Positions 1,672 to 23,669 of a stretch of DNA of 31,750 nt are shown one piece after another. The position numbers and the translations under genes were made by a program. A model generated the notes under the pieces. The model was given only the letters and a program-made list of their open reading frames with translations, ran no database searches and was not told where the DNA came from. Source of the stretch: Elusimicrobiota bacterium (lineage in GTDB: Bacteria; Elusimicrobiota; Elusimicrobia; UBA1565); the NCBI GenBank assembly GCA_043819795.1, contig JBDREN010000133.1, positions 1 to 31,750 on the forward strand, written 5' to 3'. How positions within the stretch are numbered: the first letter of the stretch is position 1; each line of letters opens with the position of its first letter.

Positions 1672-1712
1672 CGGACCTCCTCCTGCATGATACTATTCCA
1701 CATTCATTGGAC

Positions 1713-3529: not shown

Positions 3530-3580
3530 CGGGCCCCGGGCGGTCGCGGCAGGCCCGACTTTCCGGGAGATCCAGCGCCG

Positions 3581-4523
3581 TTGGCCGCGCATTCCGGGGC
3601 TTGCGGATCCGGCCCGACGCGCTTGAGCGGGGCGCGGGCGGGGCCGCGATGGCGGGCCGGCCGGACGATCTCCAGCCTGGATTCCGCGCGGACTTCGCCC
3701 GCGGAATCGGGCTGGAGGCCGGCCGGATTCGCGGAGGTCCCGGGCCTTTGCGGACCGGTCTCGGAGCGAATCTTGGCCCGGTTCGTCTCATTGTTGGGCC
3801 CATAGCTCCAGCCTCATTTTCGTCGCCGGCCCATCCGGCCTCTTCTTGCTCGTTTCTGCTGGCTTTACCAGGAACTCTCCCACCCGCTTCGATCCATCCA
3901 GCAATGGATTCGCGTCCCAACCCCTCTCCCGCTACGAACTGTCTGGTGGGTGGTGTGCGGTAGAGGGGTTGGGACGGCAGCGGGTGGGAAATGGGGGATG
4001 GACTTGGGGGAAACTGCGGGAGAAACTCGGGCGCTCCGAGGCCCGGGATCCATTCCACGATCGGGCTTGGCCGCGCATCCGGGGGCCTGCGGATGCGGCC
4101 CGACGCGCTTGAGCGGGGCCCGGGCGGGGCCGCGATGGCGGGCTGGCCGGACGATCTTCAGCCGGGATTTCGCGCGGCCTTTGCCCGCGGAATCGGGCGG
4201 GAGGCCGGGCGGATTCGCGGAGGTCCCGGGCCTGTGCGGACCGGTCTCGGGGCGGGTCTTGGCCCGGTTCGACTCATCGCCGGCCCCGTAGCTCCAGCGT
4301 CATTTTTCGAACCCGGGCGACGGCCTTCTGAGCAATCGGATATCATGGCTATTGTTGAACATCTCCCACCCGCCTCGATCCGGCCAGCGCCGGATTCGTG
4401 TCCCAACCACTCTCCCGCTACGAACGGTGTGGTGGGGGGGGGGCGGGAGAGGGGGTGGGGCCGCGGCGGGTGGGAAATGAGGGATGGACTTGGTGGGAAC
4501 TGGGGGGAAACTCGGGCGCTCTG
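3581..4523. repeat. Imperfect tandem duplication, ~486-bp period (3581-~4038 and 4067-~4523)
   Basis: Both copies start TTGGCCGCGCAT..., share long blocks (GGCCCGACGCGCTTGAGCGGGGC, GGATTCGCGGAGGTCCCGGGCCT, TCTCCCGCTACGAAC) and end GAAACTCGGGCGCTC. Confidence 0.9.
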
Positions 4524-5442
4524 CGGCACGGTTTCTATCCCGCGGTCGGACTGAGCCGGGCGCGGAAATCGCCCTTGACGCGGGGACTTCTCAGCCCGCA
4601 GCGGCCGGCAGACAGGCCCCTCTCCTGGCCGAAATCCGGGATGAAGCCTGCGGGAAATCCCGCGGCCCCGCTGCGATGTGGCGCGTGTGGGTGCGGGGCT
4701 GCCGGGCTGTCTCCGGGCTCCGGACCGCGGCTTGGCGCGCGCAGAATTGCCTCTCCCAAGTATATCTTGGAGCGGCGGCGAGCAGGGTGATCGCTGGGAA
4801 ACTGCCGCGGAATTCCCGCTTCGGATCGGCTCAGGGGCCATCTTAATGCCGGATATGGATGTTAGCTCGCGTGTTAGCCGGAGCTACCTTCCAAGCTAAC
4901 GCCCGGGACGCCAGAGGTCCGTGACAATGTGGCGCGATTCCCAGCGCTTTTCTCGTCCACCTCTCACCCTGCGATGCAGGGTTCGCGCCCCGACCCCGCC
5001 CCCGCAACGACTGCATGCGAGGCCGGGGTCGGGGCGGTGGTGGACGAGACAGAGGGGGAATCATTCTGGGGGTTTGGAGTGGAAAAAAACGACAAAGGAC
5101 AACGGCAACTGGACCTCAATCTAGATGAATGCGAGCTGAAACTTGACCGACTGTATGAATGCCGCGGCGCCCTTGGGCGGGGGCGATCAACCGCTCGCAG
5201 CGGCATCGCCCACCATGCGTTGCGCAGCCCGAACTCTCGACATCTTCCGCGCAATTCTTTCCGGTATTGGCGGCTCCATGACCTCCAGCCAGGGGGGGCT
5301 GCAAGGTCAAGGGCGCGGGATCGGCGGGCGGCAATTCAGCGGGATGATCCTGAAACGAGGCGCGATATCTCCCAGGTGGCCGGCACACTTTTCGAAATCT
5401 CAGAGCGAATCTACTCAGCTGAAACCCAAATCCGGCAATTCG

Positions 5443-5448
5443 TATAAT
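5443..5448 (+). promoter_or_regulatory. -10 box TATAAT, probably giving a leaderless transcript
   Basis: TATAAT 6 nt before ATG 5455, no RBS; CTGAAA 18 bp upstream. Confidence 0.6.
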
Positions 5449-5454
5449 CCATCC

Positions 5455-6231
5455 ATGAGCCATCACGAACACTTCCCGACCCCAGAAGAGCTCTCCTCGG
5501 CGCCGATTTGCGACCGTGCGGACTCGCTGAAGTTCTACTCTGACGAGAGCGCCAAGCGCCGGAAGAAAGGCGAGCCGGGCCCGTTGCGCATGCTGATGCC
5601 GGCGGCCCGGTTCGCGGAGCTTGTGGACGCCTTGGCAGATTTCAAGCCGAGTCCGCGGCTGCTTGACGCCTGGGCTTCCCTGGGATTGATCTCGCCGCCG
5701 CTGGAGCGGGAGGGCCGCAAGGACCTCTTCGTATATCCCGACCACTTCGAGCAGGCGGCCGTGGTCCTGACCCTCCGCTACTGCTACCACCTGCCCTTGA
5801 AGGCCATCCGGGATTTGCTGGCGCACTTCCCGCATGACCTGTTCCACGTGGTAACGTCCCGGAAACTGTCCGCCGATGAGCTGTTGGACGCGGCCAAGAT
5901 GCTCCCCGGCGGTTTCGAGCTGAAGGATATCTTCATGGCCCGGGCCTGCGACGCGATGCTCGGCGATCTCCTGCCCGCGGACGAGGCACTGCAGGCGGCG
6001 GCCGAGGAGGGGGGGCGGCTGCGGAAGCTGGAGGAGGAGCGCATCCTCTCCCGGCTTGATGAGATCAAGGCCTGGGTGACGGCCGGCGGCCGGCAGAAGT
6101 TCGTCCAGCGCGAGGCCGCCAGGGACTTCCAAGACTTGGCCTGGCGGCAGCGCTTGGCCGTCCGGGTCCGGAAGAAGCTGCTGGCCCGCCAAGCCCGGAT
6201 CATACGCGACGCGGCCGCGAAGGGGGGCTGA
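5455..6231 (+). CDS. MerR-like helix-turn-helix DNA-binding protein
   Basis: SPRLLDAWASLGLISPP...YPDHFEQAAVVLTLRYCYHLPLKAIRDLL resembles a MerR-type winged HTH. GC3-rich codons begin near 5455, so the ORF-track start at 5143 is unlikely. Confidence 0.65.
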   Translation: MSHHEHFPTPEELSSAPICDRADSLKFYSDESAKRRKKGEPGPLRMLMPAARFAELVDALADFKPSPRLLDAWASLGLISPPLEREGRKDLFVYPDHFEQAAVVLTLRYCYHLPLKAIRDLLAHFPHDLFHVVTSRKLSADELLDAAKMLPGGFELKDIFMARACDAMLGDLLPADEALQAAAEEGGRLRKLEEERILSRLDEIKAWVTAGGRQKFVQREAARDFQDLAWRQRLAVRVRKKLLARQARIIRDAAAKGG

Positions 6232-6287
6232 GCTTGCCGATGTCCCCGGCCCGACTCTCCGGCACCGGAGGCGGTGGATAGCCCCGA

Positions 6288-6494
6288 ATGGAGCGCCTCC
6301 TGACCGTCGATCAGCTCGCCGACCGGCTTCAAGTGAAGCCGCGGACGATCTATCAATGGGTCCACGAGCGCTATATCCCGACGGTCAAGCTCGGGAGCCT
6401 GGTCCGGTTCAGCCCGGCCCGGGTCTCGGAATGGCTGGAGAAGCGGGAAGTGCCGGGACGGGTAAGACGGAGCCTGGCGGTCGATATCGAATAG
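6288..6494 (+). CDS. Excisionase-family HTH protein (Xis/HTH_17)
   Basis: LLTVDQLADRLQVKPRTIYQWVHERYIPTVKLGSLVRF; 68 aa; next to an integrase. Confidence 0.9.
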   Translation: MERLLTVDQLADRLQVKPRTIYQWVHERYIPTVKLGSLVRFSPARVSEWLEKREVPGRVRRSLAVDIE

Positions 6495-6549
6495 GGCGGG
6501 ACACCCCCGCCTGCCGGATAGTCCCGGCCTCCCAACCTTTCGGCCGGGA
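6495..6549. terminator. Two GC hairpins between convergent xis and int
   Basis: GGCGGG/CCCGCC and TCCCGGCC/GGCCGGGA; no clear U-tract. Confidence 0.35.
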
Positions 6550-6551
6550 GA

Positions 6552-7577
6552 TCAGAACCGCAGCCTTTCAACGGCTGATTTCAAGAAGTCCGGCGCCAGG
6601 TGCGCGTAGATCTCGGTCGTCTTGATATCCGCGTGGCCGAGGAGCTTGGCAACGGTATAGAGGTCCGCTCCCCGCATCACGAGGTGGCTCGCGAAGGTAT
6701 GGCGCAGGGCGTGGAGATGGCCGGGGATCTTCAGCTCTTTGAGCAGGGCCTTGAACTGGTGGGTCAGGTGGTCGGCGCAGAGGGGCCCGCCGTTTCCGTG
6801 CGTGAAGATGAAGCCCGGGGTTTTGGCGGAGGCTTTCCTCATGGACTTGAAGGCCTGGAGCGCGGCGGCGTTCAGCGGGATGTGACGGACCTCGTAGTCC
6901 TTGGGGCGCCAGCCCTCCTTGGCCTGGACGATGAGTAGCCGGCGGCCGAGGTCCACGTCGTCCCAGGTAAGGTGCAGCAGCTCCTCGCGGCGCAGGCCGG
7001 TGTTGACCAGGATCTGGACCATGGCCTTGAGCTGGCCTTGGGCGGCATTGAGAATCCGGGACACCTCCTTCTTCGCGAAGAACCGGGCCTGGCGCTTGGG
7101 CTCCTTGAACTTCTTGACGGCCTGGGCCGGGCTCTTGGGGAGGAATCCCCACTCCACGCCTCGGTTGAAGAGGGCCTTGATGATGGCCAGCTCCCGGTTG
7201 ACCGTGGAGGGCTTGGCCCCTTCCTCGCGGCGGTGGTTCTTGAACTTCTCGATCTGGAAGTTGGTGATGTTCTTGAGGCGGTCGGAGCCGATGAACTCCC
7301 TGAACTTGGCCAGGACCTTGACGTTCAAGAGATGCGACTCGGTGGTGGCGTGGGCCTTGGAGTGCTTGAGATACTCCGCTATGAGGTGCTCCAGCCGCTT
7401 GTCGGACTGGGTGAAGCCGATCTCGCGGCGCTCGATCTTGACCCGGACGTCGGAGAGGGCCAGCTCGGCCAGGCGCTTGGAGCGGCCGAGCTTCTTGCGG
7501 ACCCGGCGGCCCTCCACCGCGTAGTCCATGTACCAGGACAAACCCTTCTTGCCTTTGCGCTGATAGATGCGGGCCAT
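6552..7577 (-). CDS. Phage-type tyrosine recombinase/integrase
   Basis: N-terminal arm-binding-like WYMDYAVEGRRVRKK; TGLRREE, HALRHTFASHL, LLGHADIKTTEIYAHL catalytic motifs intact. Confidence 0.95.
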   Translation of the reverse strand: MARIYQRKGKKGLSWYMDYAVEGRRVRKKLGRSKRLAELALSDVRVKIERREIGFTQSDKRLEHLIAEYLKHSKAHATTESHLLNVKVLAKFREFIGSDRLKNITNFQIEKFKNHRREEGAKPSTVNRELAIIKALFNRGVEWGFLPKSPAQAVKKFKEPKRQARFFAKKEVSRILNAAQGQLKAMVQILVNTGLRREELLHLTWDDVDLGRRLLIVQAKEGWRPKDYEVRHIPLNAAALQAFKSMRKASAKTPGFIFTHGNGGPLCADHLTHQFKALLKELKIPGHLHALRHTFASHLVMRGADLYTVAKLLGHADIKTTEIYAHLAPDFLKSAVERLRF

Positions 7578-7721
7578 CTGTCTTCTACCCCTGTTTCACC
7601 GTGGAAGGCCGACTCCTGAGCGCGTCGCCGCCTCCGCCCTTGCCGGGCCTCCCTCCGCGATATGGGCGGGTCTCGATGTGCGGCGAGGCGCCCGCTGCCC
7701 CGCGGGGCTCCTCCATTATGG

Positions 7722-8584
7722 GTCGAGTAGGGCGATGGCGCATCCACACGGAGTACTGGTCAATTTGACTCACCTTGCAACCGTGAGCCGCGCATTGTCG
7801 TTTAAGCGCCTGCGCCAGGGCGCCCAGGTCCGCTGATGTTTCCATCGCCCCCTCTAAGATTCCGTACGTCGGGTTTTCCCCGATACGGCTCCAAACTCAG
7901 GCTCACCCGATCAGACAAGCCCTTCCCCTCGCGGGTTTGACCTGTCCTTCGTCCGCCTACCCACGCACACCGCGCATACTACTGCCCGTGTGTTAGCTCC
8001 CCTCAAGGAGGAGCACTCGGGCACGCCCATGCGCTCTCGACAGACACCTGAGTCCAGGGGCCCTTGGCTCCGGTCCGGGTTATGCTATCCCGGTCCATCC
8101 ACGCTTACTACGGCCCCATCCGCCAGTCTCGGACGCTCCCCGCGACTTCCCGCATTACGGTTATACGTGGGGTCTTCTTGTCGCCGAGACCTTCCCTACT
8201 TTCATCGTCATGCTTTGAGTACGTGCCGCTCCCCCTACACCGACGGACCCGCTGCTTCTCGCCTGTTGCTGTTACCGCAGCGGTCACAGGCTCCCGCGAT
8301 TTGTGAGCGCGTCGCCGTCCGCAATCCCTGCCTCTACCAGCAATTCCCGGCAGGAGTGCCATTTCGATGCTGCAGGATTCGCTTTATGCTACGGCTCGCA
8401 CCTCCGCCTCGCACCCTTGGCTGGTTACGACCCTATTCAGGGCCTTCGAGGTACTTTGTCATCTCCGCTTTTGGCCGTCGGGATCGCTCCCAATGGTTGG
8501 AGACCAGGCTTGATGGCCGAACAGGCAATCTACCATCATCAGAACTTCCATCCGACTAGCAACGACGACTGAGTGAGGCTGCAC
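7722..8584 (-). mobile_element. ORF-less group II intron (IIB-like), 863 nt
   Basis: 5' end GTGCAG (8584); D5 GAGCCGTATCGGGGAAAACCCGACGTACGGAATC (7891-7858, AGC triad); D6 stem with bulged A at 7728 and 3' end ...CTACTCGAC (7722); short D4 closed by ACTCAGG/CCTGAGT; EBS1 CACAAA (8305-8300) and EBS2 AATGGCAC (8363-8356) complementary to the 5' exon. Confidence 0.93.
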
Positions 8585-8645
8585 CACAAAAATGGCACAA
8601 ATTTCGGAGCCCGTTTCGGCGCTCCAGCCGCTGCCAGCGGCCGCC

Positions 8646-10196
8646 TTACTTGGATCTCCCCGGAGGCGGGATGCGCAGACCCGGCGGGCCCTCCCCGTCC
8701 GGTCCGGACGCCTTCTGAACGCCCGGAGGCCCCTCGCCGTCTTGCCCCTTGCCGGGCACGCAGCCGTCGTCGATCACCCCGTCGCAGTCGTTGTCGAGCC
8801 CGTCATAGCACGTCTCTTCCGCGCCGGGATGGACCGCCGGGGCCGAATCGTCGCAGTCGTCGACGCACGCGAACGAGCCGTCGCCGTCCGCGTCATCGAT
8901 CGCGCCGCAGCCGCAGACGGCCGGCGCGATCTTCCCGGCGTCGGCCGGGCACTGGTCGAAGCAGTCCGGCGTCAGGTCGCCGTCCGAGTCGGCGTCCGCC
9001 GCGCCGCAGCCGCAGGCCCCGGCCCGCGTCTTGCCCGGGTCGCCGGGGCAGTCGTCGATGCAGTCCGGCGCCGCGTCCCCGTCCGAGTCGGTGTCCGCCA
9101 CGCCGCAGCCGCAGGCTCCCGGCTCGGTCTTGGCGGGGTCGTCCGGACACAGGTCGCTGCAGTCCTCCGCCGCATCAGTCACGCCGACGGTGACGGAATC
9201 CGGCCGGGAATCGAACTCGCCGTCACTGACGACGAGCTGATAGTAGTGGACGCCGATATCGGCCTCGGTGTAGCTCAAGGCTGGAGCGGCCTCGGCGGCG
9301 ATCTTCTCTTCCTCCTCCAGGACGCCGTCATTGTCCAGGTCCTCATACCACGCATACGCGAGAGACTCTCCCTCCGGGTCATAAGAAGCGGCTCCGTCGA
9401 GGACGGCACCCTCGTTCCAAGCGGCGAGCAGATCGGACCCGGCGTCCGCGACCGGCGCCCTGTTCGGAGACGCGCTTTCCGCCATTTCCTCCGCCGCCCT
9501 CGCAACGTTCGAAAGCCTAACCTCGTCCATCACTCCGTGGAAATACCTGGCCCCATATCCATCATATCCTATGAGCAAAGAGGTCCAGGAGCTCAAGTTA
9601 TAATCAAGCGGAGCAGAAAAGCTCCTGTCCAATACCCCGTCTATGTACGACAGCACCTGCTTTCCTGAGCCGTCATACACGACGGCAATATGCGTCCATA
9701 CGTCCTCGCTGACCCACCCGCTTGAGGGGAAATGGGAGAAACCTCCCCCCTCTTTAATCAAATAGAGAGAGGGCCTCCTGTCGCTGACGAGAAGCCACTG
9801 GTACGCATGGTTATCATGTCTTCCCACTAAACCCGGCCAAGTGGCGGTGGGCTTCCGGTTGATCCAGACCTCAATCGTGAAACTGCCGTTGATGCCGAAA
9901 TCCAGGCTGGGGTCATGCGGAACCTCGACCTTGTCGTTGACCCCATCGAATGCGAGCGCGGAGCCGAACATGCCGGTCGTCCAGGTCGCCCCGAGGATCG
10001 TCCCATGGTTCCCGTTCGGGCTCTCGTCATGGGCGATATTTCCCGATTCCTCGTCGAAGTGCCATAGCCCGACGGTATGCTCATCGACACTCAGCCGGGC
10101 CGCCCTCGCCTCGACACAAAAGGCCGTGGCCGCCGCAATCAAGAACACGGCCGCCGCCGAACACCTCACAACTGCACGGACCCGAACGTTCTCCAT
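8646..10196 (-). CDS. Secreted protein: signal peptide, LamG-like jellyroll, PKD-like domain, thrombospondin type 3-like and MopE-like Asp/Cys repeats
   Basis: VGLWHFDE...FTIEVWI...WTHIAVVYDG...FHGVMDEVRLSN; NRAPVADAGSD...LDGAASYDPEG; repeats DxDGDxxPDCxDxCP; DCDD...HPGAEETCYDGLDNDCDGVID. GGAGGAG RBS before ATG 10196. Confidence 0.9.
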   Translation of the reverse strand: MENVRVRAVVRCSAAAVFLIAAATAFCVEARAARLSVDEHTVGLWHFDEESGNIAHDESPNGNHGTILGATWTTGMFGSALAFDGVNDKVEVPHDPSLDFGINGSFTIEVWINRKPTATWPGLVGRHDNHAYQWLLVSDRRPSLYLIKEGGGFSHFPSSGWVSEDVWTHIAVVYDGSGKQVLSYIDGVLDRSFSAPLDYNLSSWTSLLIGYDGYGARYFHGVMDEVRLSNVARAAEEMAESASPNRAPVADAGSDLLAAWNEGAVLDGAASYDPEGESLAYAWYEDLDNDGVLEEEEKIAAEAAPALSYTEADIGVHYYQLVVSDGEFDSRPDSVTVGVTDAAEDCSDLCPDDPAKTEPGACGCGVADTDSDGDAAPDCIDDCPGDPGKTRAGACGCGAADADSDGDLTPDCFDQCPADAGKIAPAVCGCGAIDDADGDGSFACVDDCDDSAPAVHPGAEETCYDGLDNDCDGVIDDGCVPGKGQDGEGPPGVQKASGPDGEGPPGLRIPPPGRSK

Positions 10197-10293
10197 ATTC
10201 TCCTCCTCTCCGCCCATCCTTGACGCCAGCCCTGCCGCTGAACGTACCCCCACTCCCCCTGAGAAATCCTCCTCCCCATCCTCGCTACTACGT

Positions 10294-10323
10294 ACTATAC
10301 CCCCCCCTCAGCTGACAAATCAA
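10294..10323 (-). promoter_or_regulatory. Candidate sigma70 promoter of the LamG gene
   Basis: TTGATT-N18-TATAGT. Confidence 0.45.
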
Positions 10324-10471
10324 GGACAAACCGCCGACATCGCAACAAAAAAACTGATTGCCGAATAAGGGGTTTTTCCTTTGTCAGCACTCAGGGCTGA
10401 GTCGGCCAGGCCGACGGATTCCGAAATCGCTCCGGTTGCCGCATAATCAGCGCCTACTGCATCTCCGATTG

Positions 10472-10579
10472 GTTGTGAATCGAGGGGGCTGGCCGTAGGC
10501 CAGTCCAGCGATTGGGGAGCGTGTGGGCAACGCCCCGGCGTTGTCCAGGGGATCCCCATGAGCGGCCGCGATTCACAAC
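10472..10579. repeat. ~108-bp structured palindromic element, copy 2
   Basis: Terminal IR GTTGTGAATCG/CGATTCACAAC; same internal hairpins as 3422-3529. Confidence 0.8.
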
Positions 10580-10648
10580 GTATCGAGGCCGGGGTACCGC
10601 TCAGCTTCCCACGTCTTCCTGCAAGAGACCCTTCGCGGGCTCTGAGGC

Positions 10649-11824
10649 TCAGACGAGGCCAGCCAGGAACCTGTCCGCGGAGACCACGCGGATGCCGTCA
10701 ATCAGCTTGTCGACCCCCGGCTTTCTGAGGACCTGGTAGAGGAAGGGGATTGCGAGCCTGTCCTTGAAGTACTTCAGCGAGGCCGCAGGCTGCTCCTCAC
10801 CCAGCTTGGCTTCCGCGGCGAACCACGGCTTCCCGCCCGCCACCATGAGGAAGTCCACCTCCCTCTTGCTCCTGTCCCGCAGGAAGCGGAGGTCTATCTT
10901 GTATCCCTCGCGGTCGTGGAGGCGATGCGCGAGCTTGAGCAGGTGGGATGCGACCAAGTTCTCGAATCGGGCGGCCTCATCGCCGACCTCGGACCAGTCC
11001 CAGAGGTAGAGTTTCGGCTCCTTCCTCACGGCCCGGAACCGGCCCTTGGCGTGCGGATAGATCCTGAACTGATAGTAGAATGACTCCAAGATGCCCAGCC
11101 ATCTCGAGACCGCCTGGTGGCTGACGGACAGATCCTCCCTGAGCGAGTTCGTCGAGAGAAGCGAGCCCACTTTGCCGGGCAGCATGTCGCTCAAAAGCCT
11201 CATGCTGTCGAGGTCCCTGATCGCCCCCACATCCCTGATGTCTTCCCTGAAAAGCCTCTCGACCTTCTCGTTGTGCCAGCGGCGCAAGGCCCTGGGGCTC
11301 TGCCTCATGAGCGGCTCCGGGAATCCTCCGAACCGCTCCAGCGCGGCCAAGTCCCGGGCCGCGCCCTTGCCGGCCACGTGCAGCTCCTTGATGGGCTCGA
11401 CAGCGTTCCTCTTGCCCAGAAGCTCGGCCAGCGAGAACGGGTGCAGTCTGTGGTAGTGGTATCTCCCTTGGAGCGAGTCCCCCCCTCTCCTGTAGACGTC
11501 AAGGCGGGAGCTTCCGGTGACCAGGAACTTGAATCTGTCCTTGAGCTTGTCGTATTCGCCCTTGATGAGCCTCTTCCAGCCCTTGTGCTTGTGGACCTCA
11601 TCGAGGATGATGAGGTCGGCCCCGCCGGGCCATTCGGACGACATGATCTTGCGCCGGTCGGCCCTGTTGTCCCAGTTGTAGTAGGCGGCCTGCTTGAAAT
11701 GCCCGGCCACGAGTCCGGTGGCGAGCGTGGTCTTGCCGACCTGGCGCGGCCCACCGATAAAGGCCATCTTCTCCCGGAGATCCTCCAGGATATCCCGCGT
11801 CAAGTACCTGTCCTTCAGGGCCAT
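10649..11824 (-). CDS. AAA_14 ATPase with DUF4143 and C-terminal PD-(D/E)xK-like domain
   Basis: Walker A GPRQVGKTT, Walker B ILDEVHK, VTGSS, SLQGR, GGFPE, KEPKLYLWD, FENLV, REVDFL...EAK. Start moved to 11824 because ATG 11851 directly abuts the -10 box. Confidence 0.92.
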   Translation of the reverse strand: MALKDRYLTRDILEDLREKMAFIGGPRQVGKTTLATGLVAGHFKQAAYYNWDNRADRRKIMSSEWPGGADLIILDEVHKHKGWKRLIKGEYDKLKDRFKFLVTGSSRLDVYRRGGDSLQGRYHYHRLHPFSLAELLGKRNAVEPIKELHVAGKGAARDLAALERFGGFPEPLMRQSPRALRRWHNEKVERLFREDIRDVGAIRDLDSMRLLSDMLPGKVGSLLSTNSLREDLSVSHQAVSRWLGILESFYYQFRIYPHAKGRFRAVRKEPKLYLWDWSEVGDEAARFENLVASHLLKLAHRLHDREGYKIDLRFLRDRSKREVDFLMVAGGKPWFAAEAKLGEEQPAASLKYFKDRLAIPFLYQVLRKPGVDKLIDGIRVVSADRFLAGLV

Positions 11825-11851
11825 TTCCAATCCCCCGTTTCCAACCGTCAT

Positions 11852-11880
11852 AGTATAGGGCGAGAAATCGGATATGTCAA
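11852..11880 (-). promoter_or_regulatory. Near-consensus sigma70 promoter
   Basis: TTGACA-N17-TATACT; inverted repeat AAGGTTAA/TTAACCTT just upstream (11891-11922). Confidence 0.85.
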
Positions 11881-11951
11881 CTTTAATGCTAAGGTTAACT
11901 TTGTCACGCCTAATTTAACCTTCAGGAAAAACGGCTGCGCAAGGGGGCACG

Positions 11952-11996
11952 AGAAACGGAAACCGGGATTCTCCCTTCGAGAACCCCGGTTTCCGT
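11952..11996 (-). terminator. Hairpin downstream of tRNA-Glu, probable terminator
   Basis: ACGGAAACCGGG...CCCGGTTTCCGT long stem followed by a short pyrimidine run on the minus strand. Confidence 0.6.
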
Positions 11997-12018
11997 CGAG
12001 GATTCGCCTCTTATTTGG

Positions 12019-12037
12019 TCCGGGTACCAGTGGCGCG
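12019..12037 (-). repeat. 19-bp duplicate of the tRNA-Glu 3' end and trailer
   Basis: TCCGGGTACCAGTGGCGCG occurs at 12019-12037 and 12083-12101. Confidence 0.85.
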
Positions 12038-12094
12038 CACCAAGCCTGTAATTCAAAGGACCGGCACTCGCCCGTAGTTCGCTCCGGGTACCAG

Positions 12095-12168
12095 TGGCGC
12101 GTACGGGATTTGAACCCGTGATCTCCGCCTTGAGAGGGCGGCGTCCTAGGCCACTAGACGAACGCGCC
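12095..12168 (-). tRNA. tRNA-Glu (anticodon CTC), CCA not encoded
   Basis: GGCGCGT/ACGCGCC acceptor stem, CCGCC-CTCTCAA-GGCGG anticodon arm, GGTTCAAATCC T arm. Confidence 0.97.
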
Positions 12169-16198: not shown

Positions 16199-17359
16199 TC
16201 AGCCCTCCGCCTCTTCGACGGCGGCCCGCTCGTCGCCCGCCCGAATCTTCTCGATGCGCGCGACCGCCTGGTCGAGTTTCTTGTAGCTCGGGCCGGTGAT
16301 CTCGGCGTAGGTCTGGCTCGCCTTATCGAGCCTCTCCCCGAGCTGGACGAAGCGCTCCTTGAACTTCTCGTAGGCCTGCCGGAACGCCGCGATCGAGCGG
16401 ACGACCTCCTCCGTGGCCTTGGTGAAGTGGAAGTTCTCGAAGGCCTGGCGGATGACCGCCAGCACGGCGTAGAGGCTGAACGGCGAGGTCAGGACCACCT
16501 TCTTGGCCAGCGCCTCGTCGAGTATCTCCGGCATGCTCTCGAGCACGAAGCCGTAGATCTGCTCGTTCGGGATGAACAGCAGGACGTAGTCGAGGGTCCG
16601 CTCGTCCGGGTTGATGTAGTCCCGCTTGGTGATCTCCTTGACGCGCCCTTTCACGTCCTTCAGGAAATCCGTCTTGAAGCGCGCCCGCTCCTCGTCGGAG
16701 CCGGCGTTCACCATGCGCAGGTAGTTATCGAGGGGGAACTTCACGTCCATGTTGAACTTGTGCCCGTCGGGAAGGCGGAATGTGAAATCCGGGCGGCTCG
16801 CCACGGTGTCCTGGGCGCGGTTCTTGACGTACTGCACGTTCTCCACCAAGCCGGCGGCCCTGAGGATGTCCTCGGCCATGCGCTCGCCCCACTGGCCGCG
16901 GGTCCTCGAGTTGGAGAGCACGGAATAGAGGCGGTCGGTGGTCGTCTGCAGCTGCTCGGTCGTCCGGGTCGCCTTGCGCAGCTGCTCCTCGATCGACCCG
17001 TACTTCCGGGTCCGGTCGGACTCGAACTCCCGCATCAGGGACTCGTAGCTCTTCAGCCGGTCCTGCAGCTGGCCCACGCTCGTCTCGACCGCCCGTCGCT
17101 GCTGATCGAGCTCCGACGAGGCCTTCACCTGCTCGGTCTCCAGGCGGCTCTGAGCGAGCTTCAAGAACTGCTCGCTCGCTTTATCGAACACCTCGGCCGA
17201 GACGGCCGCGAACTGGCCCTTGAGATCCTCCTTCCGCTGCCGCGCCTCGGCGTCCGCGTTCTTGCGCACCGAGAAGACGACCGCGTAGACGGCGAGGGCC
17301 CCCAGGAGGGCCCCCGCGAGAACGGCGGCGAGCACCGCGAGCGCCATCGCGGGGCTCAC
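16199..17359 (-). CDS. rmuC: DNA recombination protein RmuC
   Basis: N-terminal TM anchor, coiled coil, RGQWGE, RPDFTFRLP, DVKFPL, YINP, VLLFIPNE, LTSP. The GTG start overlaps the upstream TGA (alternative ATG at 17347). Confidence 0.93.
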   Translation of the reverse strand: MSPAMALAVLAAVLAGALLGALAVYAVVFSVRKNADAEARQRKEDLKGQFAAVSAEVFDKASEQFLKLAQSRLETEQVKASSELDQQRRAVETSVGQLQDRLKSYESLMREFESDRTRKYGSIEEQLRKATRTTEQLQTTTDRLYSVLSNSRTRGQWGERMAEDILRAAGLVENVQYVKNRAQDTVASRPDFTFRLPDGHKFNMDVKFPLDNYLRMVNAGSDEERARFKTDFLKDVKGRVKEITKRDYINPDERTLDYVLLFIPNEQIYGFVLESMPEILDEALAKKVVLTSPFSLYAVLAVIRQAFENFHFTKATEEVVRSIAAFRQAYEKFKERFVQLGERLDKASQTYAEITGPSYKKLDQAVARIEKIRAGDERAAVEEAEG

Positions 17360-17889
17360 CGGGCGCCCCCCCGCCGGTTCCGCCCGGCCTTCCTGAGGAG
17401 GGCCTCCACGTCGGCGAACGTCAGCCGGTCCCCCTTGCAGATCTTGCCCGCGTCGAGATAGAGCTTGAGCTTGGCGAGGCAGTCCTCCCAGCCCTCCTGA
17501 TAGCGGCGCAGCAGCCGCTCGCGGGAGGGCGCCGACGAGAACCCGGCGTGGACGAGCGTGACCTGCGCCCCGCGCCCCTTGCCTTCGATGAAGAAGCTGA
17601 CCAGCGCCGGGACGCCGCGCGTCCGGGAGCCGTCGTCCAGGATCCAAGCCACCTTGCGGCCCGGATCGAGGTCGACGAAGACCCCTCTGGCCTCGATGCC
17701 GTCGCAGCGCCGCCCGGCGGGCCATACCATGCGCATGCGCCCCATATTGCGCGCGTCGGTCTCGGCGCGCTCCAGCCACCATACGCAGAGCTCGCGGGCC
17801 GAGGTGAGGGCCCGGTACACCTGTTCCGGCTTGGCCTTCAACGAAGCGGAAAAGCGGATATCGCTGGCGGGGAAGCTCCGGCGCGGCAT
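17356..17889 (-). CDS. SRPBCC/AHSA1 (START-like) domain protein
   Basis: AKPEQVYRALTSARELCVWW...VTLVHAGF...GWEDCLAKLKLYL; preceded by TGcTAGAAT 6 nt upstream of the ATG. Confidence 0.88.
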   Translation of the reverse strand: MPRRSFPASDIRFSASLKAKPEQVYRALTSARELCVWWLERAETDARNMGRMRMVWPAGRRCDGIEARGVFVDLDPGRKVAWILDDGSRTRGVPALVSFFIEGKGRGAQVTLVHAGFSSAPSRERLLRRYQEGWEDCLAKLKLYLDAGKICKGDRLTFADVEALLRKAGRNRRGGAR

Positions 17890-18048: not shown

Positions 18049-21000
18049 ATGAAACAGACCCTGGCGGCGCTAATCGCCGCGGCCCTTGTCACGGCGGCCC
18101 CCGGTGTCGAGCCCTGCCGCCTGCTGGCCGCCTCGCTCGGCGCGATCAAAGCTCCCGTCGGCCCGGGCACGCCGGCCTCGGTGGGAGCGGGAGCCGCGAG
18201 CCTCTCCTCCGCGAGCGGCGCGCGAGACCTCGCCGGCGCCGCCGTTGAATCCGGCCTTCACTCCATCCTACCGGCAACGGCCGGACCCGCCCCCGAGGTC
18301 CGGATCCGCGGCGGCGCGCTTGGCGCCGCTTCCGCCGGGCCGATTTCCCCGGTCCGCCCGGAACTCCGGCCGGGACGGCAGGCCTCCGCGGAACAGGCGG
18401 CTCCGGGCGCCGGGGCGGACGCCCCGCGCTCCCGCGCTCTCACACGCGCGGCGGCCAGCCGGATATCCGCTCTCAGCCGGAACCCCGCCATGCGAAGGAT
18501 CCGCTCCGGCCGGGACGCGTTCGGCGCGCTGACGCAGATCTTCCACGGCGGCGGGAATCCCGCCGCCGGGCCCTCCCCCACGGCCGTGGCGCCGGGCGCT
18601 CAAAGCCGGAGGCTCGGCCTCGGCCACGCGAGTCCGCTCCGGAGGCCCGGGCGCTTCGCGAGGAGCGCCGCGGGCGAAGCCCCGGACGTCGAGCCGGCGG
18701 TCGAGACCCGAAAGGAGCGCGGCGATGGACAGGCGCCGGGCGCCGGGCGCCCGGGGACGCTGCGCCGCGCCGCCGCGGCGGCCCTCCAGCCGGTCGGCCA
18801 GCTGGCCAAAAGCATCTACGATGCCGCGCTGCCGCCGCTCGTCCGGGCGCTCACGACCGGCTCGTCGAAAGGCCCCGAGGGCCGGGCTCTAGAAAAGCTC
18901 GCCGCCAACCTGAAGAGCCTCGGCGAGAAGGCCTACAAGAAGCGCGCCGTGTCCCGGCCCGCGGACGATGACCGGCCGACCGTCGCGATCCTCGCGCCGC
19001 CATCGGTCTACAAGCTCGCCATCGCGCGCGAGGGCGGCCGCCAGTCGCCCGGCGACGTGCACCTGGCGCTCGACCCGTCGTGGCTGATCCAGGAGAGCCT
19101 CCCGGACGGACGCACGCGCCTGCTTTTGACCAAGGGACTCTACTTCGACGCGGACGGACAGGCCTGGGTGGCCGAGTACAAGAAGCCTCGCCCCGTCCGC
19201 TACTTCGCCAACTTCCATACCCCCGGCGCCAACGACCGCGACGACGGCGTCCCGCTCGAGCGCGACCTGGACGCCCCCATGTCGAGCTCCACCGAGCTCG
19301 AGTCGGTGACCAACGACAAGCTCCTCACCCGCATGCTGATGTCCGCGAAAGGGATCGCCGTGCCCGCCACGCTCGCTTTCCTGATGGCGGGACACCCCCT
19401 GGCGGGGGAAGCCGCGGACCCGTCCCGCGCGGAGCCCGCCGCCGAGGTCTCGGTCACCCGCCTGCCGGAGGACCAGGCCGCGGTCCGCCGCCGGGTCGAG
19501 GCCTTCCTTGAGAGCTACGACGGCGCGGAGGTCGTGGTCAAGCCCTCCGGCCCCAGGTGGCACTCGGGCTACGGCGTAAAGTTCTTCGACCGCGGCCAGG
19601 TCGAAGAGATCGTGCGCCACGTCATAAACCTTTCCCGTGACGCGCGCATGACCCCCGACGGAGCCGTGCTCCTGGACGAGCGCCTGAGCCCGCCGGCGAT
19701 CTCCTTCAGGACCGCCCGGCCCGACGGCCGTGCGCCCCCCTCCGAGACGCGACAGCGCCTCCAGGGCCCGGCGATCGGGCTGGGAGGCGAGCTCCGGCTC
19801 GACTTCCTGACCCGCGCGGAGATCGAACGCGACGATCATCCCAAGACCAGGAAGGACTGGAACATCCGGGTCCTCGCCGCGCGAACGCCTTGGGACGGCG
19901 GCGCGACGACCGGGATATTCGGCAGGGCGGGGACCTGGGGCATCCCGACCACGGCCGAGCCGCAGGATCCCGAGGACGCGGCCGTCATCCTCAAATACGA
20001 GGACATCGTCCGCGCCCTGCGACAGCAGCACGGCCTTCTCCGGACGGAAGAGGAGGTCCGGGCCTTCACCGAGGAGCTCGAGGCCCTCGGGCCCAAGGTC
20101 CTGGAGTCCATCTGGGAGAACGAGGCCCGAAGGACGCCCGCGCCCGGAGCTCCGAGCAAGGCCCAGACCGACTACATCGGCCTCGACGTCATGGTCCGCT
20201 ACCGCGACGGCAGGCTCACGCCGATGGTCATCGAGGTCAACGACCACGACGCGGGCGGCCAGATGCAGTTCGACCGCTTCTATCCGGAAAGGGCGGGCGA
20301 GCATTCCCGCGCCTGGGTCGCGACGATGCTCGCCCGGGCGCGGCGCGACGCCCTGCGAGGCAAGCGCATCGCGATCGTGGGCGCCGGCTATCCGGGCAAG
20401 CGCTTCGTCTTCGAGCGGGCCAGGGAGCTGGGGGTCAAGATCGTGCTCATCGACCGGCCGGGCTCCTGGGCCGCGGACCTCGTCGACGAGTACATCGCGG
20501 TGGACACCCTCCATCCGGAGAACGCGCTGGCCGAAAGCCTCGAGGAGCTCGAGAAAAGAGGGCTCGGCGCCGCCCTCGACGGCATCACCTCCTTCTGGGA
20601 GGACGACGTCCCGCTGACGGCCGATCTCTCGGAGAGGCTCGGGCTGCCCCACTTCCCGCACTGGTCGGCCGTCGTCGCCCGCGACAAGTCCGCCACCCGG
20701 AATCTCATGAAGAAGGCCGGCCTGCCAACGCCGCGCTACGCCTATGTCGGCTCCGCCGAGGACCTGGAGAAGGCCTTGGACAAGGTCGGCTTCCCCGCGG
20801 TACTCAAGCCGGCCTCGGGCGCCGAGGCCCGGTTCGTCACCGAGGTCCGCTCCAAGCCGGAAGCGCGCGAGGCGTGGGCCGCCCTCCGAGGCCGGATCGC
20901 CGAGCTCTCCAAGACCGACGGGGCGTTCTCGCAGGAGGCGGGCTTCGTCCTTGAGCAGTTCCTCGACGGCGACGAGGTCGACGTGGACCTCGTGATGCGC

Positions 21001-21600
21001 GGCGGCAAGCCGGTCTTCTCCTCGGTCACCGACAACTGGCCGACCCGCCGCCCCCACTTCCTGGCCACGGGCTCGAGCCTGCCCAGCCACCTGCCCGAGG
21101 AGTCCCGGCGGCGGCTGGCGGAGTTGGCGGTGAAGACGGCGCGCGTCCTGGGCCTCGACGACGGGGTATTCCACATCGAGGCGAAGATGACCGCCGACGG
21201 GCCGCGCATCATCGAGGTCAACGCCCGGATGGGCGGGGCCTACGTGGCGGATTGGGTGAGGACGGTCTGGGGCGTGGACCTGGTCGAGGAGACCCTCATG
21301 ACCGCGGCCCGGGTCCCGGGAGCCCCCTATAGGTCGCCCCGTCCCCTGACCCACCTGGAAGGCGAGTTCCTCATCCCCGAGCGCTCCGGCGTGCTCGCCG
21401 CGCTGGAGGGAACGGATGCCGTCGAGTCCGACCCGGGCCTCCACGCCTTGCGCCGCTACAAACGACCGGGCGAGGTTGTCCGTGTGCCGCCGGACGGCAA
21501 CGACCGCGTGGGCATGCTGAGCGCGCGCGGCAAGGACGCCAAGGAGGCGGCCGGCGTCCTGGCGCGGCTCAAGAAGAAGTTGAGGATGCTCGTCCGCTGA
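18049..21600 (+). CDS. Double ATP-grasp protein resembling carnosine synthase 1 (CARNS1), with signal-like N-terminus and low-complexity linker
   Basis: Grasp 1: DKLLTR...VVVKPSG...IGLDVM...IEVN. Grasp 2: RDKSATR, FPAVLKPASG, LEQFLDGDEVDVD, VFHIEAK, IIEVNARMGG. Start MKQTLAALIAAALVTA chosen from the signal-peptide pattern. Confidence 0.88.
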   Translation: MKQTLAALIAAALVTAAPGVEPCRLLAASLGAIKAPVGPGTPASVGAGAASLSSASGARDLAGAAVESGLHSILPATAGPAPEVRIRGGALGAASAGPISPVRPELRPGRQASAEQAAPGAGADAPRSRALTRAAASRISALSRNPAMRRIRSGRDAFGALTQIFHGGGNPAAGPSPTAVAPGAQSRRLGLGHASPLRRPGRFARSAAGEAPDVEPAVETRKERGDGQAPGAGRPGTLRRAAAAALQPVGQLAKSIYDAALPPLVRALTTGSSKGPEGRALEKLAANLKSLGEKAYKKRAVSRPADDDRPTVAILAPPSVYKLAIAREGGRQSPGDVHLALDPSWLIQESLPDGRTRLLLTKGLYFDADGQAWVAEYKKPRPVRYFANFHTPGANDRDDGVPLERDLDAPMSSSTELESVTNDKLLTRMLMSAKGIAVPATLAFLMAGHPLAGEAADPSRAEPAAEVSVTRLPEDQAAVRRRVEAFLESYDGAEVVVKPSGPRWHSGYGVKFFDRGQVEEIVRHVINLSRDARMTPDGAVLLDERLSPPAISFRTARPDGRAPPSETRQRLQGPAIGLGGELRLDFLTRAEIERDDHPKTRKDWNIRVLAARTPWDGGATTGIFGRAGTWGIPTTAEPQDPEDAAVILKYEDIVRALRQQHGLLRTEEEVRAFTEELEALGPKVLESIWENEARRTPAPGAPSKAQTDYIGLDVMVRYRDGRLTPMVIEVNDHDAGGQMQFDRFYPERAGEHSRAWVATMLARARRDALRGKRIAIVGAGYPGKRFVFERARELGVKIVLIDRPGSWAADLVDEYIAVDTLHPENALAESLEELEKRGLGAALDGITSFWEDDVPLTADLSERLGLPHFPHWSAVVARDKSATRNLMKKAGLPTPRYAYVGSAEDLEKALDKVGFPAVLKPASGAEARFVTEVRSKPEAREAWAALRGRIAELSKTDGAFSQEAGFVLEQFLDGDEVDVDLVMRGGKPVFSSVTDNWPTRRPHFLATGSSLPSHLPEESRRRLAELAVKTARVLGLDDGVFHIEAKMTADGPRIIEVNARMGGAYVADWVRTVWGVDLVEETLMTAARVPGAPYRSPRPLTHLEGEFLIPERSGVLAALEGTDAVESDPGLHALRRYKRPGEVVRVPPDGNDRVGMLSARGKDAKEAAGVLARLKKKLRMLVR

Positions 21601-22360: not shown

Positions 22361-22432
22361 AGCCGACGGGGAGATTCGAACTCCCGACCTACCGCTTACA
22401 AGGCGGTTGCTCTACCACTGAGCTACGTCGGC
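22361..22432 (-). tRNA. tRNA-Thr (anticodon TGT), CCA not encoded
   Basis: GCCGACG/CGTCGGC acceptor stem, AGCTCAGTGGTAGAGC D arm, ACCGC-CTTGTAA-GCGGT anticodon arm, GTTCGAATC T loop. Confidence 0.97.
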
Positions 22433-23669
22433 GTAACGCTATATTTTGGCTGATTTCTCCAGTTAAATCTAGTGGCACCATTTCGGAACGTTCTTGCCGT
22501 TTCGTGCCAAGTGTCCAAAAAGTGTCCACTTTAGGTCCATTTAAATCCACTTCCGCACCAACCGGTCCCGCTGCGCACAAGCGGTCCATGGCCCGGCCGT
22601 ACTTCTCGACCGCCTGCCTTTTGTGGTCCGGCGACAGGTGTCCGTAGCGCTTGTCCACCATCTCGGCCGTGGTGTGGCCCACCACTTCCGCGACCGTCTT
22701 GAGCCCCACGCCGCTCATGAGCATGTAGGAGATCGCCGTGTGCCGCAGGTCATGGAACCGGAAGTCCGTGATCCCAACCAGGCGCAGGCCCCGCATGAAG
22801 GCCGTGCGCACGTCGCGCAGCTTGCCTCCTTGCCGGCTGTTCATGAAGACGTAGTCGCCCTTGCGCGGCATCGAGGACAGAAGCTCCCTGGCCCGCGCGG
22901 GCAAGGCCACCTGGTCCGGCTCCTTCTTCTTCGTGTGCGTGAAATAGGCGAAGCCGTTCTCCAAGTCCACGTCCTGCCAGCGCAGGCCGAGGATCTCGCC
23001 GCGCCTGCGGCCCGTATAGATCGCGAAGGTCACGACCTCCCGAACAGGAGAGCCAAGCCATGAGAGGAGCTTCCGTATCTCATCGGGCTTCAGGTACCGC
23101 TTTCGGATGAACTCGCGCTCATCAAAGAGCTTGAGGCCAACAAGGGGCCGCGTAGAGATCACCTTCCAGTCCGCTGCCTTGTTGAGGATGCGCCGAAGGC
23201 AGGAGACCTCCCGGTTCGCCTGTCCCTTGGACACGGTGCGGAAGGTGTTGCCGGCCCACTCTTTGATCCGCCGCCTGCGCCGGTCGGGAGAGGCATGCGC
23301 CTTCCCGCGGAAGGGATGCTGCTTGGGCTCCCTGATCCTGGCGGCCATGTAGCGCTCCACCTTGGCCAGGTCGATCTCATAGAGCCTGCACCGCCCGAAC
23401 GTCCGGCTCAGGCGCTTCACGTAGCCGACCTCGTGCTTCCAGCTCCGCAGCCGGCTCTTGGACCACTCCAGGTACCTCTGCGCGAACGAGGCGAAGGTCT
23501 CCCGGCTCCTCTTGCGCACGTCCAGGAACCTCCCCTCCGCGATCTGGAGCCTGCGCTTGGCGAGCACGGCGCGGGCCAGCTTCTTGCTCGGCCCGACCTT
23601 CTCGCGCACGCGCCTGCCGTTGACCCGGTAGTCGATGAACCAGTTCTCGTCCTTGCGGTAAAGGCTCAT
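22389..23669 (-). CDS. Phage-type tyrosine integrase whose ORF ends inside tRNA-Thr
   Basis: [59 protein letters not shown] stop at 22391-22389. Confidence 0.93.
   Translation of the reverse strand: MSLYRKDENWFIDYRVNGRRVREKVGPSKKLARAVLAKRRLQIAEGRFLDVRKRSRETFASFAQRYLEWSKSRLRSWKHEVGYVKRLSRTFGRCRLYEIDLAKVERYMAARIREPKQHPFRGKAHASPDRRRRRIKEWAGNTFRTVSKGQANREVSCLRRILNKAADWKVISTRPLVGLKLFDEREFIRKRYLKPDEIRKLLSWLGSPVREVVTFAIYTGRRRGEILGLRWQDVDLENGFAYFTHTKKKEPDQVALPARARELLSSMPRKGDYVFMNSRQGGKLRDVRTAFMRGLRLVGITDFRFHDLRHTAISYMLMSGVGLKTVAEVVGHTTAEMVDKRYGHLSPDHKRQAVEKYGRAMDRLCAAGPVGAEVDLNGPKVDTFWTLGTKRQERSEMVPLDLTGEISQNIALRRRSSVVEQPPCKR
22509..22528. repeat. Tandem AAGTGTCCA x2 (11-bp period), candidate integrase arm-type sites
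   Basis: Copies at 22509-22517 and 22520-22528, in an AT-rich tract about 80 bp from the tRNA 5' end. Confidence 0.6.

What the first reader, a model, noticed from the sequence alone, without database searches (positions are those of the whole stretch)
18049..21600. Bacterial full-length carnosine synthase (CARNS1)-like protein behind a signal peptide
Seen: two tandem ATP-grasp domains (~18976-20350 and ~20359-21600). Recalled from human CARNS1 (from memory, needs alignment): LLVSKAVSF..PRRATYF vs LLLTKGLYF..PRPVRYF; EDRLLTR..GVAVPATLAF vs NDKLLTR..GIAVPATLAF; TDFLGVDF..LTPVALELN vs TDYIGLDV..LTPMVIEVN; GKQLLVVGAG..KKFVWEAAR vs GKRIAIVGAG..KRFVFERAR; LDGCFSYWDD vs LDGITSFWED. The resemblance spans both domains in order, whereas typical bacterial L-amino-acid ligases have one grasp domain. 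CARNS1 is known mainly as an animal enzyme. Inference: a bacterial relative (origin or HGT) making carnosine-like dipeptides.
Basis: partly seen in the sequence, partly recalled or inferred. Interest (0 to 1): 0.8.

Follow-up and report, generated by a model that had tools for sequence, protein, structure and literature searches.

The report
Bacterial cousin of carnosine synthase
An uncultured bacterium encodes a full-length relative of the animal carnosine-making enzyme that keeps the catalytic residues of both its joining sites, so it likely builds a short peptide other than carnosine, and it shows that this enzyme family reaches well beyond animals.

Summary
Observation confirmed. The ORF at 18049-21600 (1,183 aa) has an export-type leader, a low-complexity linker and two ATP-grasp modules collinear with CARNS1. 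The N-module alone retrieves named CARNS1 proteins (octopus E 3e-35, bat 4e-21) but no NCBIfam family or PDB chain. It belongs to an Elusimicrobiota clade (31 of 401 genomes sampled), often MFS-fused; this scan noted the fused form before on other DNA (e1-4365206).

Interpretation partly supported. In both domain trees this clade lies outside the group holding eukaryotic, cyanobacterial and planctomycete CARNS-like proteins, and AU tests reject grouping it with animals or eukaryotes. Both active sites keep their catalytic residues, whereas the vertebrate N-site has decayed, so a two-step ligase making a tripeptide-like product is likely. Carnosine is unlikely: a pocket Glu of CARNS1 is Ala here, and no panD was found in the genome. 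The cyanobacterial and planctomycete sister proteins sit beside a dedicated panD (5 of 12 loci), making them better beta-alanyl candidates. The leader type fronts many proteins of this genome, so export is unproven. No paper on bacterial members turned up in the searches; JGI already auto-labels some 'carnosine synthase'.

The parts
18049..21600 (+). CDS, 1,183 aa tandem ATP-grasp ligase of the CARNS1-related Elusimicrobiota clade (P0001); single copy in the genome
18049..18129 (+). Signal-peptide-like leader (aa 1-27: basic start, hydrophobic core, conserved Pro-Gly motif); a lineage-wide leader type; cleavage site inferred
   Evidence: heuristic; a profile built from 23 homologue leaders of other sources hits 24 own ORFs at >=12 bits vs 0 reversed
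18130..18852 (+). Ala/Pro/Ser/Gly-rich low-complexity linker (aa 28-268), no Pfam match, no transmembrane helix; relatives carry an MFS permease at this position
18853..18969 (+). Short segment before the N-module that still aligns with CARNS1 (aa 269-307)
   Evidence: the same segment of relatives aligns
18970..20355 (+). N-terminal ATP-grasp module (aa 308-769), RimK/YheCD-like class by features; K424, K498, R607, R612, D708, D713, E729, N731 all kept
20356..21597 (+). C-terminal L-amino-acid-ligase-type ATP-grasp module (ATPgrasp_N, ATP-grasp_4, LAL_C2 above cut-off); K880, K920, E976, D995, H1042, E1044, E1056, N1058, R1060, G1063 kept; A1006 where CARNS1, BacD and BL00235 have Glu
17356..17889 (-). 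Divergent neighbour: AHSA1/START-like protein; the same neighbour lies upstream in Elusimicrobiota loci L046 and L054 (synteny marker, no functional link shown)
16199..17359 (-). RmuC-family gene (start approximate); also conserved beside the MFS-fused relative in L054
21623..22276 (-). Convergent neighbour: lipoprotein-like ORF without Pfam match; a similar gene follows the relative in L059

Best explanation
The gene encodes two ATP-grasp modules homologous in order to carnosine synthase, both with their catalytic residues, and it likely works as a two-step, ribosome-free ligase that builds a tripeptide-like amide other than carnosine. Inferred steps: the C-module (L-amino-acid-ligase type, the half that stays intact in vertebrate CARNS1) would phosphorylate a small acyl donor with ATP and join it to an amino acid. 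The N-module (RimK/YheCD-like) would then activate the new C-terminal carboxyl and add a further residue. The donor is probably not beta-alanine or GABA held as in CARNS1, because the conserved pocket Glu is Ala. The enzyme most likely acts on the cytoplasmic side, with the product handed to an MFS permease that is fused in many relatives and missing from this gene. The gene is a vertically kept member of an Elusimicrobiota clade that is sister to, not derived from, the eukaryote/cyanobacteria/planctomycete group.
For: Shown: collinear homology. N-site residues in 65 clade members: K424 63, K498 64, R607 60, D713 63, E729 60, N731 61. C-site: K880 65, K920 63, E1044 62, E1056 60 (Asp 5), R1060 60. 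In 4 of 4 mammals R607 is Cys and H733/D734 are lost; none of 6 other vertebrate-type rows keeps E729. Three cyanobacterial proteins keep the N-site but have lost the C-site, and three such loci scanned have an M14 carboxypeptidase upstream. N-module-only proteins exist, so the N-site is a working unit of its own. Atlas features place it with YheCD/RimK clusters at 0.93-0.94. An MFS is fused in 33 of 104 clade proteins, nine of which start directly with the MFS and have no leader. Trees and AU tests; synteny. From papers (passages): ATP-grasp acyl-phosphate mechanism (PMC3249071); the Glu/Glu/Arg/Gly roles in RhiC (PMC13579937); a natural beta-Ala-Orn-Orn tripeptide in clams (PMC13256729), and bivalve family members with an intact-looking N-site.
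Against: The order of the two steps rests on class analogy and could be reversed. No biosynthetic neighbour lies beside this gene. The leader looks like a Sec signal and the protein has no transmembrane helix after it, which taken at face value puts the enzyme outside the cytoplasm. This copy has no fused MFS; the nearest MFS in the genome (C36) is only 31% identical to the fused type, against 54% for the ligase core. The role given to the pocket Glu (amine binding) is recalled; the BacD paper was not held. No link between the clam tripeptide and CARNS-like enzymes was seen in a paper.
Confidence: 0.5

Rival explanations
1. It is a functional carnosine-type synthase that joins beta-alanine or GABA to His, Lys or Orn at the C-site.
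For: C-module 33% identical to bat CARNS1, 186 bits. Sister-group bacterial proteins lie directly after panD in 5 of 12 loci, a second, divergent panD copy in 4 of 5 genomes. CARNS1 is promiscuous for the amine partner (PMC6920838, passage).
Against: The panD link is in the other clade. No panD, PanC or PLP decarboxylase was found in this 90%-complete genome, and panD in only 1 of 29 carrier genomes. The pocket Glu is Ala in 55 of 65 clade members but Glu in 39 of 43 of the CARNS group; H1042 is His in 65 of 65 versus mostly Asn. Other beta-alanine routes (uracil reduction, uptake) were not tested.
Confidence: 0.15
2. The leader is a real export signal and the ligase works outside its own cytoplasm, in a periplasm supplied with ATP or inside a prey or host cell.
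For: A leader directly on the two modules without MFS in 36 of 104 clade proteins. The same leader fronts typical secreted hydrolases in this genome (S8, M16, M48 peptidases, phospholipase D, amylases). Two weak ATP/ADP-translocase (TLC) matches in the genome (E 1e-7, 6e-4).
Against: The leader also fronts an ABC exporter half with its ATPase domain, MFS permeases and MscS, whose N-termini are normally cytoplasmic (general knowledge), so it is not a simple localisation mark. Nine relatives have MFS plus ligase and no leader. TLC-like hits do not track the gene: 13 of 29 carriers versus 12 of 20 non-carriers.
Confidence: 0.15
3. The N-module is a RimK/TTL-like enzyme that adds residues to the C-terminus of a protein or envelope peptide, and the C-module only supplies a building block.
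For: Distant N-only relatives match YheCD and TTL profiles; atlas neighbours are YheCD/RimK. N-only or N-intact forms lie beside exopeptidases: M14 in cyanobacteria, M28 in 4 of 16 named Elusimicrobiota loci (related genomes, not independent).
Against: No conserved target gene nearby. The fixed fusion to a dipeptide-type ligase and to an MFS suits a small diffusible product. The window N-module itself has no profile hit above cut-off.
Confidence: 0.15
4. The gene is a recent transfer from an animal or protist, or the direct bacterial source of animal CARNS1.
For: Named eukaryotic CARNS1 proteins are among the best hits outside the clade.
Against: AU tests reject Elusimicrobiota plus animals and plus eukaryotes for both modules. 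The clade is old and diverse (N-module 38-65% identity within, 21-33% to eukaryotes), common in one order (27 of 59 genomes), syntenic, and has GC3 of 0.92-0.94 in a 67% GC genome.
Confidence: 0.03

Closest known systems
Carnosine synthase 1 (CARNS1/ATPGD1, EC 6.3.2.11) and its invertebrate/protist homologues
   Same: Two ATP-grasp modules in the same order with a conserved junction helix; about 27% (N) and 32% (C) identity to mammals; C-site catalytic residues kept.
   Different: N-site intact (decayed in vertebrates); C-site pocket differs (Ala for Glu at 1006, His for Asn at 1042, Trp/Lys for Gly at 997, a LAL_C2 tail); export-type leader and linker; frequent MFS fusion; separate clade in both trees.
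L-amino-acid ligases BL00235 (PDB 3vot), BacD/YwfE (3vmm), RizA/RhiM (4wd3)
   Same: C-module architecture (ATPgrasp_N + ATP-grasp_4 + LAL_C2); best PDB hits, E 3e-29 to 2e-12; His/Glu/Glu/Arg/Gly of the active site kept.
   Different: Single-module enzymes; they keep the Glu that is Ala here; no N-module, no leader.
RimK / YheC-D / TTL-class ATP-grasp ligases
   Same: N-module has the Lys..Lys..Arg..Asp..Glu-x-Asn layout; nearest atlas clusters by features; distant N-only relatives hit YheCD/TTL.
   Different: No profile hit above cut-off for the window N-module and no PDB hit from a 22-sequence profile; fused to a LAL-type module.
MFS + cNMP-binding + ATP-grasp fusion proteins (P0077-P0080; related C-modules in Actinomycetota loci)
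   Same: MFS fusion; C-module motifs shared with this clade (Trp after Asn, His-x-Glu); near it in the C-tree.
   Different: No N-module; carry a cNMP domain; keep the pocket Glu; uncharacterised as far as seen.

Membership tests
CARNS1 / carnosine synthase | Two ATP-grasp modules collinear with CARNS1 | tested here: met
CARNS1 / carnosine synthase | N-module specifically homologous to the CARNS1 N-module rather than to RimK or cyanophycin grasps | tested here: met
   named CARNS1 at E 3e-35 to 9e-10; 0 NCBIfam families at E<=0.1; 0 PDB chains
CARNS1 / carnosine synthase | C-site ATP/metal/carboxylate residues | tested here: met
   K880, K920, E1044, E1056, N1058, R1060
CARNS1 / carnosine synthase | CARNS-type pocket signature (Gly997, Glu1006, Asn1042, Phe1064 equivalents) | tested here: not met
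   window has Trp, Ala, His, Ala; Glu in 39 of 43 CARNS-group rows, Ala in 55 of 65 clade rows
CARNS1 / carnosine synthase | Falls inside the clade that holds animal CARNS1 | tested here: not met
   separated by branches of SH-aLRT 99-100 in both domain trees; AU p 3.8e-8 to 0.0016
CARNS1 / carnosine synthase | ATP-dependent beta-Ala/GABA + His ligation | not testable with these tools
   needs an assay; context here is against it
L-amino-acid ligase (BacD/BL00235 type) | ATPgrasp_N, ATP-grasp_4 and LAL_C2 above Pfam cut-offs | tested here: met
   51.6, 71.1 and 56.5 bits, C-module only
L-amino-acid ligase (BacD/BL00235 type) | Glu of the FxET-type motif (amine-binding role recalled, BacD Glu273) | tested here: not met
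   aligns to A1006 in both PDB alignments
L-amino-acid ligase (BacD/BL00235 type) | Reaches an NCBIfam equivalog cut-off (BacD, DdaF) | tested here: not met
   57 of 850 and 36 of 840 bits
RimK/YheCD/TTL class (N-module) | Profile match above cut-off | tested here: inconclusive
   only ATPgrasp_ST at E 0.005, below cut-off; atlas features 0.93-0.94; no structure obtained
Sec-exported protein | Cleavable signal peptide that translocates the enzyme | tested here: inconclusive
   layout fits by heuristic, but the same leader fronts an ABC ATPase fusion and MFS proteins

The most novel reading that the evidence does not exclude
The two-site ligase is older than animals, and vertebrate carnosine synthase is a half-dead remnant of it. 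This bacterial sister lineage keeps both sites and tags the enzyme with a lineage-wide export leader so that it builds an undescribed tripeptide-like metabolite outside its own cytoplasm, in an ATP-fed periplasm or inside a prey cell.
Probability: 0.15. Interest if true: 0.85.

Novelty: new variant of a known kind. Interest (0 to 1): 0.52.

Why it matters
CARNS1 gave no hit in the PDB search, and its N-terminal half has lost catalytic residues in vertebrates. Bacterial relatives with both sites intact are easy to express and would show what that half does. The cyanobacterial and planctomycete members with a dedicated panD give a direct test of beta-alanyl peptide synthesis in bacteria and a possible biocatalyst. 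The Elusimicrobiota clade gives an outgroup with a changed pocket, probably making a new metabolite. It also adds a case to the puzzle of ATP-dependent enzymes behind export-type leaders in this phylum.

Tried and rejected
Drozak 2010 and Shomura 2012 were not held; statements on them are recalled. Viral contigs: 52 pattern matches, none a relative. Sequencing runs: no RNA holder listed, and only small shares (0.05-0.11) of DNA words in 4 runs, which I did not lay. The promoter scan gave nothing for this gene; one sigma-70-like site drives the opposite-strand lipoprotein gene. TLC translocase as an ATP supply: weak hits, no association with the gene. The C36 leader+MFS gene as a split-off partner: 31% identity only, not shown to be orthologous. 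Mobile-element origin was rejected for the gene itself: it lies in the roughly 70% GC segment between the two tRNAs, with neighbours conserved in relatives. 'Widely annotated in bacteria' was rejected: not found with these queries in 400 other genomes of the cyanobacterial class or 300 other Planctomycetota, nor in families f4 (0/118), f16 (0/89) or f5 (0/47) of the own phylum. Literature searches listed no paper on bacterial CARNS1 homologues; most subscription journals are not covered and no supplements were read.
Full report
OBSERVATION. The window holds one open frame at 18049-21600 (+), 1,183 aa. Pfam sees only the last third: ATPgrasp_N, ATP-grasp_4 and LAL_C2 over aa 788-1180. The stretch aa 308-769 matches no NCBIfam family at E<=0.1, and all PDB hits fall in the C-module (best BL00235, E 3e-29). 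Searched alone against 1.84 billion representatives, aa 308-769 found 187 proteins at E<=0.001. Of the 150 listed I looked up 28 by cluster, plus two. Named ones include CARNS1 of octopus (E 3e-35), bat (4e-21), bowfin, a toad and a snail, plus Ancyromonas, Petalomonas, Microcoleus and a planctomycete. Pairwise alignments run in order through both modules and the junction. Fifty shuffles of the N-module reach at most 25.8 bits, against 72-176 bits for the real sequence.

FAMILY AND RANGE. The closest 70-odd relatives are 34-60% identical; those with an organism name are Elusimicrobia, bar one partial record labelled Polyangiaceae, and several carry JGI's automatic label 'carnosine synthase'. 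In the window's phylum 31 of 401 genomes match (own included; one is a weak 65-aa hit, and some are N-module-only). They are concentrated in the own order (27 of 59) and were not found in three large families (0/118, 0/89, 0/47). The gene is single-copy in the genome. Its neighbours recur beside relatives: AHSA1 upstream in L046 and L054, RmuC in L054, a lipoprotein-like gene downstream in L059. This indicates vertical inheritance. A second bacterial set of two-module proteins occurs in a few cyanobacteria and Schlesneria. It is rare: not found with these queries in 400 and 300 other sampled genomes.

PHYLOGENY. I built separate trees. The C-module tree had 82 rows (quick search, LG+C20; the careful search did not finish; one row dropped for low coverage). 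The N-module tree had 91 rows (quick, LG+G4). In both, the Elusimicrobiota-type sequences lie outside a group of eukaryotic, cyanobacterial and planctomycete two-module proteins, separated by branches of SH-aLRT 99-100. On reduced sets (42 and 46 rows), AU tests reject joining them with animals (p 3.8e-8 and 6.2e-5) or with eukaryotes (1.1e-5 and 0.0016). Caveats: quick trees, a simple model for the tests, uneven composition, row sets chosen after I had seen the first trees, and group labels of unnamed rows that are my inference. So the protein is a sister-lineage homologue, neither a transfer from animals nor their direct source. Whether the cyanobacterial and planctomycete groups came from eukaryotes is open; the planctomycete group sits among eukaryotes in the N-tree only.

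ACTIVE SITES. I aligned 108 two-module cores, 65 of them from this clade, chosen by hit rank and coverage and mostly unnamed. The N-site keeps K424, K498, R607, D713, E729 and N731 in 60-64 of 65 rows. Protists, invertebrates and bacteria largely keep them too. Mammals have Cys for R607 and lose H733/D734 (4 of 4), and none of 6 other vertebrate-type rows keeps E729. The C-site keeps both lysines and the Glu/Glu/Asn/Arg/Gly set whose counterparts bind Mg and the donor carboxyl in RhiC (PMC13579937, passages; the residue mapping is mine). The pocket differs, though. Position 1006 is Ala in 55 of 65 clade rows but Glu in 39 of 43 CARNS-group rows and in BacD and BL00235. Position 1042 is His in 65 of 65 versus mostly Asn, and 997 is Lys or Trp versus mostly Gly. 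That the Glu binds the donor's amine is recalled; I could not read the BacD paper. Three cyanobacterial proteins show the mirror image of vertebrates, an intact N-site and a decayed C-site, and N-only proteins exist. Each module is therefore a working unit.

SUBSTRATE CONTEXT. One search gave 12 non-Elusimicrobiota two-module loci. The upstream gene is panD in 5 (three cyanobacteria, two Schlesneria), an ectoine-synthase-like cupin in 2, and an M14 carboxypeptidase in 4 (three scanned, L039 by likeness, one with an ORF between); one locus lacks upstream DNA. In 4 of those 5 genomes the adjacent panD is a second, more divergent copy. This supports beta-alanyl ligation in the sister group, in two phyla. 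It does not carry over to this gene. PanD, PanC and PLP decarboxylase were not found in the own genome (90.3% complete), and panD was found in 1 of 29 carrier genomes. Other beta-alanine routes were not tested.

LEADER AND LOCATION. Of 104 clade proteins, 36 are leader + N + C as here, 11 are leader + MFS + N + C, and 17 are MFS + N + C without a scored leader (nine start directly at the MFS, others are partial). The rest are fragments, N-only forms or leaders missed by the heuristic. A profile made from 23 homologue leaders hits 24 ORFs of this genome at >=12 bits versus 0 reversed controls; a looser composition filter found 27. I scanned 26 and 10 of these. They front secreted-type hydrolases, but also MFS permeases, MscS, CAAX proteases, an HD protein, nucleotidyltransferase-like domains and an ABC exporter half. 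The leader is thus a lineage-wide feature, not special to this enzyme, and does not settle location. After an MFS the ligase would face the cytoplasm (inference from usual MFS topology). Earlier notes on this genome propose ATP export by a TLC carrier. I found two weak TLC hits but no association with this gene (13 of 29 carriers, 12 of 20 non-carriers).

MECHANISM (0.5). Shown: homology, residue conservation, architecture, context. Inferred: the C-module forms an acyl phosphate of a small donor and makes the first amide; the N-module activates that product's carboxyl and adds another residue; an MFS moves the product. A natural model product is the clam tripeptide beta-Ala-Orn-Orn (PMC13256729, passage), though no paper I saw ties it to this family. 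As I recall, the original CARNS1 paper discussed the duplicated architecture, but it was not held. The donor here is probably not beta-alanine. Rivals: a carnosine-type dipeptide synthase (0.15), an exported enzyme (0.15), a protein-tailing ligase (0.15), a recent eukaryotic transfer (0.03).

COMPARISON AND NOVELTY. It works like CARNS1 or an L-amino-acid ligase at the C-site, but fails two membership tests for CARNS1 (pocket signature, clade), so I file it as a CARNS1-related variant, not a carnosine synthase. Searches listed no paper on bacterial members. Papers seen: passages only of PMC3249071, PMC6920838, PMC6271292, PMC9486568, PMC13579937, PMC13256729 and bioRxiv 10.1101/2023.11.21.568195; the rest as search listings; no supplements. 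Automatic annotation already names some members, and this scan described the MFS-fused form on another genome (e1-4365206). I saw only a few lines of that note, so I cannot tell which of my points it already made; those lines do not mention the trees, the pocket change or the panD link.

VERDICT. Real, not animal-derived, biochemically untested; a new variant of a known kind; interest 0.52.

Noticed in passing
L031:5371-8574, L032:5350-8574, L033:1139-3781, L042:899-4016, L049:243-2893: panD directly upstream of two-module CARNS-like genes in cyanobacteria and Schlesneria, a second divergent copy in 4 of 5 genomes. L031 and L032 also hold D-Ala-D-Ala-ligase-like grasps and an NRPS-like gene (scanned in L032). 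Best candidates for bacterial beta-alanyl peptide synthesis.
   Followed up: partly
L037, L038, L039, L041 (match at 6001 or 3354): Cyanobacterial-type variant with an intact N-site and a decayed, shortened C-site, downstream of an M14 carboxypeptidase; L038 is followed by cyanophycin synthetase on the other strand. L037's record is titled Rhizobium but groups with cyanobacteria.
   Followed up: partly
L034:5470-8574, L035:1314-8574: Microcoleus CARNS-like gene follows an ectoine-synthase-like cupin; nearby are a weak arginine-deiminase-fold (amidinotransferase-like) gene, Ddl-like grasps and an ECF sigma factor.
   Followed up: no
G000 genome-wide; L098-L134: A conserved signal-like leader plus Ala/Pro/Ser/Gly linker fronts at least 24-27 proteins, including MFS, MscS, an ABC exporter half, peptidases, phospholipase D and amylases; its function is unexplained.
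   Followed up: partly
L124:7133-9604 (G000:C36): Stand-alone leader + MFS of the subtype fused to the ligase in L054 and P0091 (31% identity).
   Followed up: partly
P0069, P0102, P0114, P0095, P0084: The N-module or the whole pair also occurs fused to an IQCH-like ATP-grasp, a peptidyl-tRNA hydrolase, a CAAX protease plus sigma factor, and inside a 5,940-aa protein.
   Followed up: no
P0120, P0127: N-module-only proteins in a slime mould (Ceratiomyxa) and in Petalomonas; the slime-mould one branches near the Elusimicrobiota clade, not with eukaryotic two-module proteins.
   Followed up: partly
P0077-P0080: MFS + cyclic-nucleotide-binding + ATP-grasp fusions whose ligase is close to this clade's C-module; no description seen.
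   Followed up: partly
window 22361-23669 (-): A tyrosine-integrase ORF runs into tRNA-Thr (22361-22432) and stops inside it; GC falls to 0.55-0.61 beyond 24 kb.
   Followed up: no
window 1-12168: Two more integrases (1852-3240, 6552-7577), an AAA_14/DUF4143 gene, a laminin-G/MopE protein and cyclase-like and MshEN ORFs on the 3' side of tRNA-Glu (12094-12168, -): a likely integrated region.
   Followed up: no
L057, L062, L063, L094: A leader-bearing M28 peptidase lies next to the ligase gene in 4 of 16 named Elusimicrobiota loci; an M20 amidohydrolase in L058 (and a like gene in L061).
   Followed up: partly
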